Made by a program: the position numbers and the translations under genes
Notes under the pieces: model-generated
What the model was told of the DNA's origin: nothing
The model's input: only the letters and a program-made list of their open reading frames with translations
Databases searched by the model: none
Shown: positions 13,085 through 18,044 of the stretch, piece after piece
Position numbering within the stretch: the first letter of the stretch is position 1
How the letters are laid out: every line of letters starts with the position of its first letter
NCBI GenBank assembly: GCA_035286525.1
Contig: DATHJR010000098.1
Coordinates: forward strand, 1 to 25,373
DNA length: 25,373 bases
Direction of reading: 5' to 3'
DNA from: Gemmatimonadaceae bacterium
GTDB lineage: Bacteria > Gemmatimonadota > Gemmatimonadetes > Gemmatimonadales > Gemmatimonadaceae

Positions 13085-13348
13085 TCATTTCGGGAACATC
13101 GTGTCGTTTACCTTGCTATCCATCTCTCGGACCAGCGTGATCAACCGCCGCACCAGCCCCGTCATTCGATCCACCGCCGCCACGTGCTCCGGGTCCAGCG
13201 TCGTCTCCATCGCGAGCAACTGTGCCTCGGCCAAGAGTGCCGCCAGGGGGTTGTTCAACGAATGCTGCACGAGCGCGGTAATCCGCTGTACGTCGTCGCG
13301 GCGCTGCTCGTTCTGTGAAACTGACGAATCGTTCGATGCTTCAGTCAC
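13085..13348 (-). CDS. Stand-alone HisKA (dimerisation/phospho-acceptor) domain protein, 87 aa
   Basis: H-box-like LVQHSLNNPLAALL followed by a second helix, with no ATP-binding domain. GTG 13348 has GGGAGG upstream. Confidence 0.75.
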   Translation of the reverse strand: MTEASNDSSVSQNEQRRDDVQRITALVQHSLNNPLAALLAEAQLLAMETTLDPEHVAAVDRMTGLVRRLITLVREMDSKVNDTMFPK

Positions 13349-13389
13349 GGCCGACGCCCCTCCCGCCGAGACGGTAAATTTCGCCAGTA

Positions 13390-13983
13390 ATGAGCCCTCT
13401 ATCGATGGATCCCTCCGCGGCGGTCGCGGCCGCCGTCTCAACATACCACGACACCAGCGACTACGGTGTTCTGCTCGAACGATTGCTGGCGATTGCGGAC
13501 GTCACCGAGCCTGACGCGCTTGCCGCCGCCGCCGAGCCCTACCTCGCGATTCCGGAGGTTTCGGGGCCGCTCTACGAGCGAATCGTGGCCGCGCGTCCGA
13601 ACGATTCACGGGCGTTGGTCATCCTCGCGAATTCGTATTGGCTCACGGGGCGCGGGCCCGAGGCAACAGGGGAGCTTGCGGCGCGCGCGCTCGCGGCTGA
13701 TCCGCTCAACCGAGGTGCCTGGCATCTGTGGGCACTCACGGAGGGGGTACCGCGCGAGCGAATGATGCGATGGAAGCAGGTGGTGGAGCGTTTCCCCGAG
13801 GACGATCTCGCGCGCGCGAGCCTCGCCGACAACGCGACGGGACTGGCATCGGGGGAGCGCGATCGGGAGGCGCTACAGCTCGCGATTCGAAGCTACGAGG
13901 TGCTGCGGCGCAAGGCGACGGATCCGACGCAGCGCGCCGCGGTGGAGCGGGCCCTGGCGACGCTGCGGAGCTGGACGCTGTAG
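13390..13983 (+). CDS. Hypothetical TPR-like helical-repeat protein
   Basis: TPR-like segments: YERIVAARPNDSRALVILANSY, ALAADPLNRGAW, VVERFPEDDLARASLA. No signal peptide. Confidence 0.65.
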   Translation: MSPLSMDPSAAVAAAVSTYHDTSDYGVLLERLLAIADVTEPDALAAAAEPYLAIPEVSGPLYERIVAARPNDSRALVILANSYWLTGRGPEATGELAARALAADPLNRGAWHLWALTEGVPRERMMRWKQVVERFPEDDLARASLADNATGLASGERDREALQLAIRSYEVLRRKATDPTQRAAVERALATLRSWTL

Positions 13984-13997
13984 CAGATTGACTCGAG

Positions 13998-14396
13998 CTA
14001 CGCTCGTACGTCGGCCGCGCGGAGCGTGAGCTGACGCGCGAGATCGACCAGGTCGCGGAGATCGAAGGGTTTGCCGAGGGATGCACAGCCGCAGGCGGCA
14101 ATCAGCTCGTGGGCGCGCTCGCTTCCATCGCCCGTGGTGATGATCGTGCGCTGACGCAGATGCGGTTGCACGGAGGCCGCGATCTCGAACAGCTCATCGC
14201 CTCCCATCTCCGGCATGCGGAGGTCGACCACGAGGCAGTCGAAATGCTCGTGATGCAGCAGATGCACCGCATCCTCGGCCGACTCGACCGATCGCACATC
14301 GAAGCCTGCGCGCGCGAAGCAACGCTCCAACGCCCGGCATATCGAATGCTCGTCGTCGACCACCAGAATGCGTGTCGCCCGCGGATCGTCACTCAT
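13998..14396 (-). CDS. Single-domain response regulator (CheY/Spo0F-like receiver)
   Basis: ILVVDDE, VVDLRMP (phospho-Asp), ITTG and KPF: the full receiver signature with no output domain. Overlaps the AraC gene stop by 8 nt. Confidence 0.92.
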   Translation of the reverse strand: MSDDPRATRILVVDDEHSICRALERCFARAGFDVRSVESAEDAVHLLHHEHFDCLVVDLRMPEMGGDELFEIAASVQPHLRQRTIITTGDGSERAHELIAACGCASLGKPFDLRDLVDLARQLTLRAADVRA

Positions 14397-15201
14397 TCAG
14401 CGCGCTCTCCCGATCACCGAACACATCCCCTGGCCGGCATACGAGCGCGGCCATTCGCAGTGAGAATTCTTCCATCGTGAACGCCGACCGCATGGTCGAG
14501 GGACTCATCCCCGTAGCCGTGCGGACCTGCCGCGCAAAGACGCGGATCGAGCTGTAGCCGAGCTTTTTCGCGATGTCCTCGAGCAGAAATCCCGGATCGC
14601 CCATGTAGTGCTTCGCCCGCGTGAGCCGGGCGACGAGGATCGTCGTGCGGGCGGACGCCAGGCCACATCGTTCGAACCATCGATCCAGACTGCGTCTCGT
14701 CATCCCCGACATCCGCGCGAGCTCCTCGACATCGAGGAACTCCTGCGGCGCTTCGAAGAGCCGAGTGATCGCCTGCACGAACAACGCTGGCGCGCCGTGC
14801 AGATGCGGGAGCACGTGCCGTAGAACCGAGTCACTCAGCCGAGTTGCGGGCAGCTGGTGGAGCAGCTGACGAAAGCGTCGGGGCTCGTCGTCGAAGCCGC
14901 GAAGAATGACGTGCTGAACGCCAAGCTTTGCGAGCATGACCGTCGCCTGCATCGAATCCGCCGCGAGCGTGGTGTAGATGACCACCGGCAGTGTGGGATG
15001 CCGAGCGAGCAATTCACGAGCCTGTCCCAGTTCGAGCCCCCCGGAGGTCCGTGGATCCAGAACAACCAGATCGACGGGACGCTCCCGGATGGCGAGTAAC
15101 AGCGCGCCCCAGCCATCGACCACCGTGAGTGAATGATCCCCGGCGAGAGCGATTTGTAGTTGGGCGGCGAGTGGGGCAGAGAGGCGGGCGAGGACTTCCA
15201 C
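14389..15201 (-). CDS. AraC/XylS-family regulator with an atypical N-terminal receiver domain
   Basis: C-terminal twin HTH (DVEELARMSGMTRRSLDRWF; LEDIAKKLGYSSIRVFARQVRTATGMSPS). N-terminal DLVVLDP and VVIYT are receiver-like. Confidence 0.85.
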   Translation of the reverse strand: MEVLARLSAPLAAQLQIALAGDHSLTVVDGWGALLLAIRERPVDLVVLDPRTSGGLELGQARELLARHPTLPVVIYTTLAADSMQATVMLAKLGVQHVILRGFDDEPRRFRQLLHQLPATRLSDSVLRHVLPHLHGAPALFVQAITRLFEAPQEFLDVEELARMSGMTRRSLDRWFERCGLASARTTILVARLTRAKHYMGDPGFLLEDIAKKLGYSSIRVFARQVRTATGMSPSTMRSAFTMEEFSLRMAALVCRPGDVFGDRESALNE

Positions 15202-15218
15202 GTCGGCGGGCGCATATT

Positions 15219-15252
15219 TGTCCTAAAACAGCACATCGATGTCCGAAAATGT
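15219..15252 (+). promoter_or_regulatory. Tandem direct-repeat operator in the araC/peptide divergent promoter
   Basis: TGTCCTAAAA (15219) and TGTCCGAAAA (15240), 21 bp apart. The same motif recurs upstream of the TPR gene. Confidence 0.65.
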
Positions 15253-15284
15253 GTGTTTACGACTGTTTGCGCTACCGTAGCTTC

Positions 15285-15320
15285 GGGATCAAGTCGCAAC
15301 GCCAATCACCACTTGATCCC
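15285..15320 (+). promoter_or_regulatory. 5' UTR stem-loop of the peptide transcript
   Basis: Perfect 10-bp inverted repeat GGGATCAAGT/ACTTGATCCC with a 16-nt loop. It starts 6 nt after a TACCGT -10-like hexamer and ends just before the SD. Confidence 0.55.
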
Positions 15321-15332
15321 CACGAGGTCGCC

Positions 15333-15461
15333 ATGTTTGTCCGCAAAATTACCCTGATCGCCGTTGTTCTGACCTCCTTTGCTCTTGCCGCTTGCACCTC
15401 CCCCACCGCGCCGACGCAGGATTGCGCGATTGCGGTTGGAAGCGGCTGCGGACCCAAGTAA
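15333..15461 (+). CDS. 42-aa exported lipobox peptide (candidate signalling peptide or lipopeptide precursor)
   Basis: MFVRK-ITLIAVVLTSFA-LAA|C-TSPTAPTQDCAIAVGSGCGPK. GAGGT SD 4 nt before the ATG and its own terminator. It is buried at the end of the spurious 15129-15461 ORF in the track. Confidence 0.75.
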   Translation: MFVRKITLIAVVLTSFALAACTSPTAPTQDCAIAVGSGCGPK

Positions 15462-15488
15462 GACCTCAAGCGGGCCTTCAGGGTTGCT

Positions 15489-15533
15489 CGACAGGGGGTT
15501 CCGGGGTGCAAACCGGAACCCCCTGTCGTTTCT
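15489..15533 (+). terminator. Intrinsic terminator between the convergent peptide and TPR genes
   Basis: Perfect 16-bp stem CGACAGGGGGTTCCGG/CCGGAACCCCCTGTCG with an 8-nt loop, followed by TTTCT on +. Confidence 0.8.
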
Positions 15534-16791
15534 ATCCTTCGACGCCCGCCGTCGTACGGAGCTCGTGCATTGCCCTTGCAATTCCCTGGACCTCCGGGGA
15601 CCAGACGGTGTTCCGAATCGTGGTCTGCGCCGCACGATGCTCGCGCTTCTCCTGAGTCTCCAGCTCTCCGAACAGCTCCTCGGCCTCGAAACGCAGCTGC
15701 CCGAGCTGATTTCGGGTAGCGACCTCGATCGCCTTACTGACCGCAGCCTTCGCAAGCACCATCTGATCGAAAGCGCGATGCCCCTGCGCCATATACATGT
15801 AGTAGTAGGTCTCGAGCGCCGGCGGCAGCGACGCGCCGTCGAGTTCGCGACGATACTGCTCGAACAACGTTTCCCTGCGCTCCTGCACCGCAACGTCGAG
15901 CAAGTTGAGCGTGGCCGTCCAGCGCATGTACTGCTCCTGCGCGGTGGCCGCAACGACGAGATAGGCATCACGCGCGGCGCTGAAAACGCCGAGCTGCGCG
16001 AAGCTCGCACCCAAATCGTTTAGCACGCGATCACGCGCCATCTGATTGCGCACGCCCTGCAACGCCTCGAACTGAAGAACGACGGCGTCCTCGAAACGGC
16101 CGCGCCTGAAAGCCACGAGTGCGCGATCGTGGGTTGCCGTCGCGCGGACCTCGGAGAGCCCCGACTCCTTGGCCTGCACGATCGTCTCGTCCAGCAGCGT
16201 TTCGGCGTAGGGAAGATTTCCGCGATCGATCGCGATGTTCGCTTCCTGAATTCGCGCGCGCAGGATGCTCATCATGTCATTGGTCATCGTCGCGACCTGC
16301 GAGGCGGCGGCGAAGCACGTCAACGATTCATCCCATTCCGCGAGCACGCGCAGGCACCGGCCCAGCTGCATGTTGGCCTGGATGACCATATCCGAATCGT
16401 GCACCGGCGTCGCGTACGAGAGCACGGTACGATAGACGTCTGCCGCCAGCGGCCACTTGGCGCCATGCTGTAGTGCGCGCCCGTACGCCATCAATCGGGG
16501 AGCGACCGTGACGATGCGCGGCTGCTCCGCCGTCACCATCGATTCGACGATGCTCGAGAGGAGTCCGCGCGTCGTATCGCGAAAGTCCATCGCGGCGATC
16601 TGATCGCGCACGGCATTGAGCCCCGGCGAGTCGTCGAGGACGACTTCCGCCCCTGCCGTCATCCAGCTGTCGAACAGGCGCAGCACGACCAGCGCAGCGC
16701 TCAAGCTCCGCCACTCGGCGCTGTCATTCGCCAGTTCGGCCAGCCGTTCGAAATACGGTAGATGGGCGAGCGGCCGCGCGATACTACTCAT
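15532..16791 (-). CDS. Cytoplasmic multi-TPR protein, 419 aa (RRNPP/Rap-like architecture, no HTH seen)
   Basis: About 7 TPR-like repeats (e.g. LGRCLRVLAEWDESLTCF, VLNDLGASFAQLGVFSAARDAY) after an ~90-aa helical N-terminus. Strong SD GGAGGAG. No signal peptide. Confidence 0.8.
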   Translation of the reverse strand: MSSIARPLAHLPYFERLAELANDSAEWRSLSAALVVLRLFDSWMTAGAEVVLDDSPGLNAVRDQIAAMDFRDTTRGLLSSIVESMVTAEQPRIVTVAPRLMAYGRALQHGAKWPLAADVYRTVLSYATPVHDSDMVIQANMQLGRCLRVLAEWDESLTCFAAASQVATMTNDMMSILRARIQEANIAIDRGNLPYAETLLDETIVQAKESGLSEVRATATHDRALVAFRRGRFEDAVVLQFEALQGVRNQMARDRVLNDLGASFAQLGVFSAARDAYLVVAATAQEQYMRWTATLNLLDVAVQERRETLFEQYRRELDGASLPPALETYYYMYMAQGHRAFDQMVLAKAAVSKAIEVATRNQLGQLRFEAEELFGELETQEKREHRAAQTTIRNTVWSPEVQGIARAMHELRTTAGVEG

Positions 16792-16866
16792 TTACTCCTC
16801 CGTCTCGGGCGTTTCGCCCAGGGTAGCGATCAACATGCAAGTGAGTATCGGAGGCAACAAGCGCGA

Positions 16867-16939
16867 TTTTAGGACTTTCACATGACATTTTCGGACAATC
16901 TTTTGCCCGAACGCCGAGTTGGGCGCATTTTTTAGGCAC
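16867..16939 (-). promoter_or_regulatory. Direct-repeat operator upstream of the TPR gene
   Basis: Minus-strand copies GTGCCTAAAA (16939-16930), TGTCCGAAAA (16897-16888) and AGTCCTAAAA (16876-16867), spaced 42 and 21 bp. Confidence 0.65.
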
Positions 16940-17030
16940 TGTACAGAAAGTAGACAGCCTATGTACAACTACCACTCCGTTTCCGCGCAGTGATTTTCAG
17001 CCGGCCATCTTCCAGCTTGCGCCCACGATC

Positions 17031-18044
17031 TCAGCGCGCCGCTCGCCCCAGCGCCACGTTCGCCACCGCCGGCCGCGCGATTTTCGAGGGGTCGCCATCG
17101 CTCACGTACCGGTAGCCCTCCAGGCGATCCAGCATCTGCTCGAGCTGGTTGGCGAAAATCTCCACTCGCGGCAACCGCTTGGCATCGAACGCCGGATCGT
17201 ACGGGCTGCGCGCCGGGCCGCCCGCGACCTCGAGCACCGCATCGAAATCGTACCGCGCGACACGGCCGCCGTGCGGATCCTTCCACTCACCCGCTACCGC
17301 GAGCGCACGATTCTTCGGCCAGACTCCAAGCGGCAGCGCGAACGTGCGCACGCGATATCCGGGGACGGCGGAATCGATCGCCAACGTGCCGCGTGCGATC
17401 TGCTCCTGCACCACCGCATCGCTGTACTTCCCGAGGTTGGCGTGCCAGAGCGTGTGCCCGCACAGCTCGAAGCCCTCGTCGGCGAGAAATCGCATCTTCC
17501 GGAAGCGCCACTGCGACTTCTGTCCCTCGATGCCCTTCTCGCCGAAGAATGCGTGTCCGGCGGCGCCGCCGGACAGCACGCAGAACGTCGCCTTGTTCCG
17601 CCAGTCCGGATGCTCCTTGTTGAACGCCAGCCAGATGCCCACCGCGCTGTTCGAATCGATCTCCAGCGTTCCGTTGTGATCGATGTAGCTGAACTGGGAT
17701 GGCCCCGCGTCGTCGAACGTGAACACGACGGGCGATTTTCCCGCGGGCAAATCGATCCTTCTGTCGATCATCTCCGATACCGTGACCGGACGATAGCCGC
17801 TCGCGTAGAGGCGCTCGAGGTCGCGCCGAAAGTGATTGCGCTCGACGTGCCAGCGGGTGTCGCTGTCGCCCAGCAGGTGATACTCCAGAATCGGAATGCG
17901 CCCCAGCTCGTTCGGCGCGAGCTGATTTGTTTTCGAGCCCACTTCCCCGTGGTCTGCGGAGCTGACCGTCGCACTGCGTGACGACCCGTGGCAGGCGAGC
18001 GTGGCCAGGAGCAGCGAAGCGGTGATGCATCGGGCGCGAAACAT
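17031..18044 (-). CDS. Polysaccharide deacetylase (CE4/NodB) family lipoprotein
   Basis: Lipobox-like LAC, TFDDAG motif 1, GHTLWH metal-binding motif 2, FALPLG motif 3. Confidence 0.85.
   Translation of the reverse strand: MFRARCITASLLLATLACHGSSRSATVSSADHGEVGSKTNQLAPNELGRIPILEYHLLGDSDTRWHVERNHFRRDLERLYASGYRPVTVSEMIDRRIDLPAGKSPVVFTFDDAGPSQFSYIDHNGTLEIDSNSAVGIWLAFNKEHPDWRNKATFCVLSGGAAGHAFFGEKGIEGQKSQWRFRKMRFLADEGFELCGHTLWHANLGKYSDAVVQEQIARGTLAIDSAVPGYRVRTFALPLGVWPKNRALAVAGEWKDPHGGRVARYDFDAVLEVAGGPARSPYDPAFDAKRLPRVEIFANQLEQMLDRLEGYRYVSDGDPSKIARPAVANVALGRAAR

What the first reader, a model, noticed from the sequence alone, without database searches (positions are those of the whole stretch)
15219..16939. 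Shared 21-bp-phased operator links the peptide, AraC and TPR promoters into one regulon
Seen: TGTCCTAAAA and TGTCCGAAAA 21 bp apart in the araC/peptide gap. Upstream of the TPR gene, in the same orientation relative to transcription, GTGCCTAAAA, TGTCCGAAAA and AGTCCTAAAA are spaced 42 and 21 bp. The 13-mer TGTCCGAAAATGT is identical at 15240-15252 (+) and 16897-16885 (-). The first copy lies 17 nt from the araC start. Known: AraC-family proteins bind direct-repeat half-sites with about 21-bp periodicity (araI1/I2) next to the -35. Inference: the local AraC protein activates both peptide and receptor and autoregulates, the feedback wiring typical of quorum sensing.
Basis: partly seen in the sequence, partly recalled or inferred. 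Interest (0 to 1): 0.82.

Follow-up and report, generated by a model that had tools for sequence, protein, structure and literature searches.

The report
Shared AraC-type operator, two promoters
Two promoters 1.6 kb apart in a soil Gemmatimonadaceae genome, one driving a tiny exported lipopeptide gene and one driving a TPR protein gene, carry the same pair of 21-bp-spaced DNA repeats found nowhere else in the genome. The repeats are conserved and co-evolve with the neighbouring AraC-type regulator, so they form a small self-contained control circuit whose signalling role is still unproven.

Summary
TGTCCTAAAA and TGTCCGAAAA (15219, 15240, + strand) and TGTCCGAAAA and AGTCCTAAAA (16897, 16876, - strand) are 21-bp tandem direct repeats. 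Both pairs point toward the downstream gene.

They are not chance:
- The 9-mer occurs 4 times in the window against 0.19 expected.
- The tandem pair occurs only at these two promoters in the 3.4-Mb genome.
- In 18 genomes of the genus it occurs at the same two promoters, with one extra site.

The proximal repeat abuts a -35 hexamer in both promoters. The repeats are a phylogenetic footprint. In more distant Gemmatimonadales the repeat sequence changes. In several lineages it changes in parallel at both promoters, and it tracks the first recognition helix of the adjacent regulator.

That regulator has a degenerate receiver domain fused to an AraC DNA-binding domain. I read the repeats as its operator, activating the lipopeptide and TPR genes.

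Limits:
- The third site (GTGCCTAAAA) is conserved in position but is a different, weaker sequence that overlaps a palindrome.
- TPR coupling is lineage-specific; the peptide promoter is the universal target.
- Autoregulation is only implied by geometry.
- The quorum-sensing reading is untested.

The scan has noted this peptide/TPR module in another Gemmatimonadota genome (e1-2216306).

The parts
13998..14396 (-). Stand-alone response-regulator receiver, 132 aa, with canonical DD, D, T and K residues. Its ATG overlaps the araC stop (ATGAGTGA).
   Evidence: Pfam Response_reg E=1e-18. Sequence. Conserved downstream of the AraC-type gene in most of the related loci examined.
14389..15201 (-). AraC-type regulator, 270 aa: an N-terminal degenerate receiver fold (no acidic pair, no Lys; Asp49 kept) followed by two AraC-type helix-turn-helix motifs.
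   Evidence: Pfam HTH_18 scores 52.6 bits against a cut-off of 33.6. AlphaFold model pLDDT 87 with a (beta-alpha)5 domain plus a 7-helix DNA-binding domain. Foldseek matches receiver domains at TMt 0.68-0.77 and the AdpA DNA-binding domain at TMt 0.81. Residue comparison from alignment A2.
15219..15234 (+). Distal repeat of the peptide promoter, TGTCCTAAAACAGCAC.
   Evidence: The TG.C..A.A columns are invariant across 12 genomes down to 35% regulator identity (A4).
15240..15255 (+). Proximal repeat of the peptide promoter, TGTCCGAAAATGTGTG. It abuts the -35 hexamer.
15256..15261 (+). Inferred -35 hexamer TTTACG of the peptide promoter.
   Evidence: TTT is invariant in A4. Inferred from conservation; no transcription start data. 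The strict sigma-70 consensus scan did not call it.
15278..15283 (+). Inferred -10 hexamer TAGCTT of the peptide promoter, after a 16-nt spacer.
   Evidence: T80, A81, T84 and T85 are invariant in A4. Inferred.
15333..15461 (+). 42-aa lipoprotein-type precursor: signal peptide, LAAC lipobox, then a 22-aa mature peptide CTSPTAPTQDCAIAVGSGCGPK.
   Evidence: A lipobox peptide ORF with a Shine-Dalgarno site was found in 17 of 19 related loci. The mature N-terminus C-[TSA]-x-P-T-[AG]-P recurs.
15489..15528 (+). 16-bp hairpin followed by UUUCUAUCC: an intrinsic terminator for the peptide mRNA. On the - strand no U-run follows it.
   Evidence: Fold -44.3 kcal/mol, z = -4.6.
15532..16791 (-). 419-aa cytoplasmic all-alpha TPR superhelix protein.
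   Evidence: AlphaFold pLDDT 90. Foldseek top hits are LGN/Pins TPR, then Rap proteins at TM about 0.5.
16832..16837 (-). Inferred -10 hexamer CATGTT of the TPR promoter (CAAGTT in other species of the genus), after a 17-nt spacer.
   Evidence: Invariant block in A3. Inferred.
16855..16860 (-). Inferred -35 hexamer TTGTTG of the TPR promoter, at the same offset from the proximal repeat as TTTACG in the peptide promoter.
   Evidence: CTTG is invariant in A3. TTG-type hexamers sit at the same offset in the family-level loci L011, L012, L014, L019 and L020.
16861..16876 (-). Proximal repeat of the TPR promoter, AGTCCTAAAATCGCGC.
   Evidence: AGTCCTAAA is invariant in 15 genomes of the genus (A3).
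16882..16897 (-). Distal repeat of the TPR promoter, TGTCCGAAAATGTCAT.
16930..16957 (-). It lies 42-43 bp upstream of the distal repeat.
   Evidence: A3: G40, C54, A55, G58, C60, A62 and A66 are invariant, with consensus CAGTGSCTAA. It does not match the GTCC core, so its role is unknown.

Best explanation
The four TGTCCKAAAA repeats are the operator of the adjacent regulator, which carries a degenerate receiver domain fused to an AraC-type DNA-binding domain.

Proposed mechanism:
- Two regulator subunits bind two direct repeats of about 16 bp, spaced 21 bp start to start.
- In both promoters the proximal repeat ends exactly where a weak -35 hexamer begins (TTTACG for the peptide gene, TTGTTG for the TPR gene).
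- The bound protein therefore recruits RNA polymerase, as AraC does at araI1-araI2.
- This switches on the small lipoprotein-type peptide gene and, in this lineage, the TPR gene together.

The distal repeat lies 17 nt from the regulator's own start codon, so the operator must overlap the regulator's promoter or leader and some autoregulation is expected.

What is shown: the repeats exist, they are unique to these two promoters, they are conserved, and they co-vary with the regulator.

What is inferred: the binding, its sign, the promoter hexamers and the autoregulation.
For: 1. Uniqueness. The tandem pair is found only at these two promoters in the genome. In 18 genomes of the genus there are two per genome, of the same two types, plus one extra, while the reversed-pattern control gives one hit in all.
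2. Footprint. Upstream of the TPR gene, conservation across 15 genus genomes begins abruptly at CAAAAGATTGTCC, whereas the 20 columns before it are variable (A3). In the araC-peptide gap the repeats, TTT of the -35 and TA..TT of the -10 are invariant down to 35% regulator identity (A4).
3. Parallel change. Other lineages use TGGCACAAAA, TGTCACGAAT, TGWCAYAAAA or GATAGGAAA. In L011, L014, L017, L019, L020, L022/L039/L040 and L066 the same variant stands in both promoters of one module, matching 9-10 of 10 bases, against 12-15 of 20 between classes.
4. Link to the protein. The first recognition helix tracks the repeat class: RRSLDRW with TGTCCK, RRTMYR with TGGCAC, TVRTAYRH with TGTCAG/TGGCAG, AIVSVYRN with GATAGG, RRTCERW with TGYCGC, RRHVHRL with TGTCCCC, and two Asn-types with TTCCGWT or GTGCC. 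Paralogous modules within one genome each have their own pair.
5. Layout. It equals that of AraC: direct repeats separated by 4 bp, with the promoter-proximal one sharing bases with the -35 (PMC11983282).
Against: - No binding or expression data exist. The metatranscriptome material gave only undirected contigs of relatives.
- The strict sigma-70 consensus scan found no promoter here, so my hexamers rest on conservation alone.
- The TPR-promoter copy of the operator is not evident in family f2 or in several f1 paralogues.
- One lineage (L021/L044) has TGTCCGAAAA with a different recognition helix, RHLRRL.
- Related genomes are not independent, so the co-variation rests on roughly eight classes, not on dozens of events.
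- The receiver domain lacks the acidic pair and the Lys, so how any signal reaches the protein is unknown.
Confidence: 0.7

Rival explanations
1. The same operator and the same binder, but the regulator acts mainly as a repressor or as a dual switch, for example by looping between the proximal pair and the distal CTGT-N11-ACAG/GTGCCTAAAA element in the way AraC loops between araO2 and araI1. Its own gene would be auto-repressed because its promoter is built from the reverse complement of the repeats.
For: - On the - strand the repeats read CGGACA (15245-15240), then 17 nt, then GACAAA (15222-15217; GACAAT in most species of the genus). This is a plausible -35/-10 pair pointing at araC, which an occupied operator would block.
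- A conserved distal element sits 42 bp upstream in the TPR promoter.
Against: - Both target promoters have poor -35 and -10 hexamers directly downstream of the proximal repeat, the usual signature of activator dependence.
- The repeats lie upstream of the inferred core promoters of the peptide and TPR genes, not over them.
- The distal element does not carry the GTCC core.
Confidence: 0.15
2. The repeats are bound by some other factor, or act structurally as phased A-tracts or UP-like elements. On this reading the adjacent AraC-type gene is merely a neighbour.
For: - No binding data exist.
- Each repeat carries an A4 tract, and further A-runs flank them (CAAAAG, GAAAG).
Against: - A regulon of two promoters per genome, always beside the regulator gene, is what a local regulator gives.
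- The non-A part (TGTCC, TGGCA or TGTCG) is the part that is conserved and that co-varies with the recognition helix.
- The stand-alone receiver and the TPR protein have no DNA-binding domain.
Confidence: 0.08
3. The similarity is a chance resemblance or the remnant of a duplicated promoter, with no function.
For: With one mismatch allowed, the number of 9-mer matches in the window is at the chance level.
Against: - No shuffle reaches four exact copies.
- The tandem form is unique in 3.4 Mb.
- It is kept at both promoters in 15-18 genomes while the flanks diverge.
- It changes in parallel in other lineages.
Confidence: 0.02

Closest known systems
AraC at araI1-araI2 of the E. coli PBAD promoter, and XylS/ExsA-type activators
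   Same: - Two direct-repeat half-sites of about 17 bp with a 21-bp period.
- The promoter-proximal half-site touches the -35.
- The regulator gene is divergently transcribed, and its control region overlaps the operator (PMC11983282).
- The protein has the two-HTH AraC DNA-binding domain.
   Different: - The N-terminal domain is a degenerate receiver fold, not the arabinose-binding cupin.
- The half-site sequence is unrelated to the araI consensus TAGC-N7-TCCATA.
- The proximal site abuts the -35 rather than sharing 4 bp with it.
- No CRP site is evident.
- The targets are a 42-aa lipopeptide gene and a TPR gene, not a catabolic operon.
Response regulators with an AraC-type output domain (receiver plus HTH_18, YesN-like)
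   Same: The domain order receiver then AraC HTH, and a receiver fold with the phospho-acceptor Asp position kept as Asp49-Pro50.
   Different: - The acidic Mg-binding pair and the conserved Lys are absent, and Pfam Response_reg scores only 17 bits against a cut-off of 30. Phosphorylation is therefore doubtful.
- No cognate histidine kinase is adjacent. A canonical single-domain receiver follows in the operon instead.
Rap-Phr and other RRNPP peptide quorum-sensing cassettes of Bacillota
   Same: - A small exported peptide gene lies next to a cytoplasmic TPR protein of about 400 aa.
- A single-domain receiver (Spo0F-like) is in the module.
- If the peptide feeds back, the peptide and receptor promoters would be co-regulated.
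- Rap structures are among the bacterial fold matches (TM 0.46-0.52).
   Different: - The host is a diderm phylum.
- The peptide has a lipobox (signal peptidase II type) and would stay lipid-anchored.
- The TPR protein carries no HTH, and no phosphatase motif was tested.
- Transcription control sits in a separate AraC-type protein.
- The best fold matches are eukaryotic LGN/Pins, so the resemblance is generic for TPR superhelices.
- No Opp-type importer is in the module.
Type III secretion partner-switch circuits (InvF-SicA, MxiE-IpgC, ExsA/C/D/E)
   Same: An AraC-family activator without a small-molecule domain, a TPR partner protein and a small exported protein are encoded together. The logic in which export frees the TPR partner to act on the AraC protein would fit this trio. 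This comparison rests on my own knowledge, not on a test made here.
   Different: - No secretion-system genes are nearby.
- The TPR protein is 419 aa, not the 160-aa class II chaperone.
- Export would go by Sec and Lsp.

Membership tests
AraC/XylS family transcription factor | C-terminal domain of about 100 aa with two helix-turn-helix motifs | tested here: met
   Pfam HTH_18 E=5.7e-14, 52.6 bits against a cut-off of 33.6, residues 161-239. The model's C-terminal 7 helices superpose on the AdpA DNA-binding domain at TMt 0.81, rmsd 2.1 A.
AraC-type tandem operator (araI-like) | Two direct-repeat half-sites with a period of about 21 bp, the proximal one adjoining or overlapping the -35 | tested here: met
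   Spacing is 21 bp at both promoters and 21-22 bp in the relatives. The proximal repeat ends at the base before the conserved TTTACG or TTGTTG. The -35 assignment is inferred.
AraC-type tandem operator (araI-like) | Sequence-specific binding by the cognate protein | not testable with these tools
   The only support is indirect: the repeat class co-varies with the HTH1 recognition helix.
Two-component response regulator (phosphorylatable receiver) | Receiver (beta-alpha)5 fold | tested here: met
   The model has five beta-alpha units in residues 2-115. Receiver domains match at TMt 0.68-0.77, rmsd 2.6-3.3 A.
Two-component response regulator (phosphorylatable receiver) | Acidic pair after beta-1, phospho-acceptor Asp, Thr/Ser, and Lys after beta-5 | tested here: not met
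   Asp49 and Thr77 are present. The acidic pair is replaced (LARLSAP) and the Lys position reads LRGFDDE in this protein and its relatives (A2). Pfam Response_reg scores 17.3 bits against a cut-off of 30.2.
RRNPP peptide quorum sensing | The cytoplasmic TPR receptor is itself the effector (fused HTH or Rap-type phosphatase or anti-activator domain) | tested here: inconclusive
   The only Pfam hits are weak TPR_12 and TPR_4 and there is no HTH. Foldseek matches Rap proteins at TM 0.46-0.52 but ranks LGN/Pins TPR first.
RRNPP peptide quorum sensing | An adjacent small secreted pro-peptide is processed to a short free peptide and re-imported | tested here: inconclusive
   An adjacent 42-aa exported peptide is present and conserved. 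It carries a lipobox, which predicts a lipid-anchored product. No importer is in the module. Processing and import are not testable here.
Bacterial lipoprotein precursor | N-terminal basic and hydrophobic signal followed by the lipobox [LVI][ASTVI][GAS]C | tested here: met
   The sequence MFVRKITLIAVVLTSFALAA|C has an LAAC lipobox. The equivalent Cys and small residues are kept in 17 related loci. This was judged by pattern, not by a dedicated predictor.

The most novel reading that the evidence does not exclude
The four-gene module consists of a lipopeptide gene, a TPR protein, a receiver-AraC regulator and a single-domain receiver. With its private, co-evolving operator it could be a peptide-based cell-cell or envelope signalling system native to a diderm phylum (Gemmatimonadota). 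In this reading the AraC-type regulator gives positive feedback on both signal and receptor, and paralogous modules with orthogonal operators run in parallel in one cell.
Probability: 0.3. Interest if true: 0.85.

Novelty: new variant of a known kind. Interest (0 to 1): 0.6.

Why it matters
Gemmatimonadota are abundant soil bacteria with almost no described gene regulation. This work defines a regulator, its likely DNA site, its two target promoters and about eight natural specificity variants from sequence alone.

That gives ready-made test objects:
- gel shifts,
- reporter fusions,
- recognition-helix swaps (Asp to Tyr should switch TGTCC to TGGCA).

It also gives a firm cis-regulatory anchor for deciding what the widespread lipopeptide/TPR module does. 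If the module proves to be peptide signalling, it would extend Gram-positive-style peptide communication to a diderm phylum. If not, it remains a clean example of co-evolution between an AraC-family protein and its operator.

Tried and rejected
- Counting the motif with one mismatch is not significant. Only the exact motif and the tandem form are.
- The strict sigma-70 scan found no promoter in 15100-17100.
- GTCCGCAAA inside the peptide start (15339-15347) is not conserved in orthologues (ATGATCCGCCGCCGA and similar), so it is coding coincidence.
- GATACT in the TPR upstream region sits only 6 nt after TTGTTG, so I rejected it as the -10 in this genus. It does serve as a -10 in family f2 (TTGCCT-17-GATACT).
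- Sigma-54 and ECF-type readings of the repeats were considered by eye and dropped. There is no GG-N10-GC pair.
- A profile-based locus search in genome contigs failed for lack of a conserved stretch. The single-protein search returned only one close relative, an uncultured Gemmatimonadaceae MAG.
- Metatranscriptome and metagenome runs hold only contigs of relatives, without direction or transcription starts. They show that the operator stretch is the best-kept part, but they give no expression evidence.
- PDB sequence search with the TPR protein gave only marginal LGN hits. NCBIfam gave nothing for the peptide and nothing meaningful for the TPR protein.
- Literature searches found no paper linking RRNPP or AraC/TPR/lipoprotein modules with Gemmatimonadota.
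Full report
**What is in the sequence.** The window is contig C98 of a 3.39-Mb, 65% G+C, 89%-complete metagenome-assembled genome. Source names of close homologues place it in Gemmatimonadaceae.

The region holds these genes, in order:
- On the - strand, a canonical single-domain receiver (13998-14396) preceded by an AraC-type gene (14389-15201, GTG start). The two ORFs overlap in ATGAGTGA.
- On the + strand, a 42-codon ORF (15333-15461). It encodes a lipoprotein-type signal peptide with an LAAC lipobox and a 22-residue mature peptide. A 16-bp hairpin terminator follows it.
- Convergent on the - strand, a 419-aa TPR protein (15532-16791).

**The observation.** All five 10-mers, their spacings of 21, 42 and 21 bp, the shared 13-mer and the 17-nt distance to the araC start are exactly as described.
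- The exact 9-mer GTCCKAAAA occurs four times in the window, against 0.19 expected. None of 100 shuffles reaches four.
- With one mismatch allowed the count is not remarkable.
- The whole genome has 16 copies on both strands, four of them here.
- The tandem form exists only at these two places.
- A weight matrix built from the genus sites scores the two pairs at 47.9 and 41.8. The next pair in the genome scores 16.5, no better than a reversed-matrix control.

**Conservation.**
- The TPR protein has orthologues in 15 of 17 other genomes of the genus and in many genera of two families. A profile search found it in 55 of 94 genomes of family f1 and 93 of 166 of family f2, and rarely elsewhere in the phylum sample.
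- In most of the loci inspected the order is TPR, then the peptide gene on the opposite strand, then the AraC-type gene, then the receiver. A few loci gave no receiver match, two gave no peptide ORF, and one locus (L065) gave no AraC-type match.
- Genomes with up to five TPR paralogues were inspected, and in all but one of the paralogous loci fetched the TPR gene has its own AraC-type gene beside it.
- In the genus, the alignment of 15 TPR upstream regions (A3) is variable until CAAAAGATTGTCC. From there both repeats and the stretch to the start codon are nearly invariant.
- The alignment of the araC-peptide gap from 12 genomes, down to 35% regulator identity (A4), keeps TG.C..A.A in both repeats. 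It also keeps TTT of a hexamer TTTACG that starts right after the proximal repeat, and TA..TT of a hexamer TAGCTT 16 nt further on.
- A pattern scan of all 18 genus genomes finds the tandem motif at the peptide-type and TPR-type promoters only, plus one extra site in G017. The reversed control gives one hit.

**Promoter model (inferred).**
- Peptide promoter: repeats at 15219-15234 and 15240-15255, -35 TTTACG at 15256-15261, -10 TAGCTT at 15278-15283.
- TPR promoter, on the - strand: repeats at 16897-16882 and 16876-16861, -35 TTGTTG at 16860-16855, -10 CATGTT at 16837-16832.
- The offset between the proximal repeat and the -35 is the same in both. It recurs with TTG-type hexamers in family-level relatives.
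- This matches the AraC layout: direct repeats separated by 4 bp, with the proximal one sharing bases with the -35 (PMC11983282).

**Parallel change.**
- In other lineages the repeat reads TGGCACAAAA, TGTCACGAAT, TGWCAYAAAA, GATAGGAAA, TGYCGCAAAA, TGTCCCCAAA, TTCCGWT or GTGCC. It is nearly always tandem with a 20-22 bp period in the peptide promoter.
- In L011, L014, L017, L019, L020, L022/L039/L040 and L066 the module's own variant also stands in its TPR promoter. Matches are 9-10 of 10 bases, against about 12-15 of 20 between classes.
- In family f2 and in several f1 paralogues the TPR promoter shows at most one weak copy.
- The peptide promoter is therefore the general target, and TPR coupling is a feature of this and some neighbouring lineages.

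**Who binds.**
- The regulator model (pLDDT 87) is a receiver fold plus an AraC DNA-binding domain. The receiver keeps Asp49 but lacks the acidic pair and the Lys.
- Its first recognition helix sorts with the repeat class. Three paralogous modules in one genome (G127) have three helices and three repeat types.
- One exception is L021/L044.
- Kinship inflates such counts. I take them as about eight classes of consistent pairing.

**What remains open.**
- The third site is conserved in place (42-43 bp upstream) as CAGTGSCTAA. It lacks the GTCC core and overlaps a conserved CTGT-N11-ACAG palindrome. It may be a weak site or another factor's site.
- Autoregulation follows only from geometry. On the - strand the repeats themselves read CGGACA-17 nt-GACAAA/T, a possible araC promoter that an occupied operator would block. 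Alternatively araC could be read through from the TPR gene, because the hairpin has no U-run on that strand.
- The TPR model (pLDDT 90) is a generic superhelix. LGN/Pins rank first and Rap proteins score TM about 0.5, so RRNPP membership is not established.
- Public RNA runs gave only undirected contigs of relatives.

**Use of unpublished genomes.** G024 (locus L012) enters A1, A2, A4 and the matrix. G008 (locus L024) enters A3. No conclusion depends on either one; removing them leaves every pattern intact.

**Verdict.** The operator is real and shared, and it is most likely bound by the neighbouring AraC-type regulator. The wiring to the peptide gene is general and the wiring to the TPR gene is lineage-specific. 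Feedback and quorum sensing are hypotheses.

Noticed in passing
window 15532-16791; loci L008, L013, L015, L016, L023-L026: In 8 of 17 same-genus assemblies the contig ends inside the TPR gene, at about aa 90-225. Contigs of relatives in public runs stay above 85% identical over araC, the operator and the peptide 5' end. They are replaced by diverged sequence over 15430-15787 (peptide tail, terminator, TPR C-terminus) and over 16058-16179. This points to local hypervariability of the peptide tail and of parts of the TPR protein.
   Followed up: partly
window 16939-16957 (-): The palindrome CTGT-N11-ACAG is conserved upstream of the TPR promoter in the genus (A3). It may be the site of another regulator or a looping partner.
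   Followed up: partly
L067 2758-2787 (G017:C19:9757-9786, -): A third tandem operator, TGTCCTAAAA-N12-TGTCCTAAAT, occurs in one species of the genus. It is followed by TTGACG-17-TAGCGT and lies upstream of a 363-aa sigma-54-activator-like AAA+ ORF (L067 1631-2722, -). It may be an extra regulon member in that species.
   Followed up: partly
window about 16795-16830 (-); A3 columns 165-200: The 5' leader of the TPR gene is nearly invariant in the genus. It contains a small hairpin (TCGCC-CAAG-GGCGA) just upstream of the GGAGGAG ribosome-binding site.
   Followed up: no
window 14389-14396: The stop of the AraC-type gene and the start of the stand-alone receiver gene overlap (ATGAGTGA), which suggests translational coupling. 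The stand-alone receiver has all the canonical phospho-acceptor residues, whereas the regulator's own receiver domain does not.
   Followed up: partly
L047-L066 (G314, G127, G367, G376, G312, G255, G416, G084, G119): Some Gemmatimonadales genomes carry 2-5 paralogous TPR modules. In most of them the TPR gene has its own AraC-type gene beside it, with its own repeat class and recognition helix. These look like parallel circuits that need not cross-talk.
   Followed up: partly
window 15339-15347: GTCCGCAAA inside the first codons of the peptide gene resembles the operator. It is not conserved in orthologues, so it is most likely coincidence.
   Followed up: yes
window 13085-13444 (-) and 13390-13983 (+): A HisKA-only 119-aa ORF and a 197-aa ORF with a weak TPR_16 hit lie next to the module. 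They are syntenic within family f1 but not in f2. Whether they belong to the module is open.
   Followed up: no
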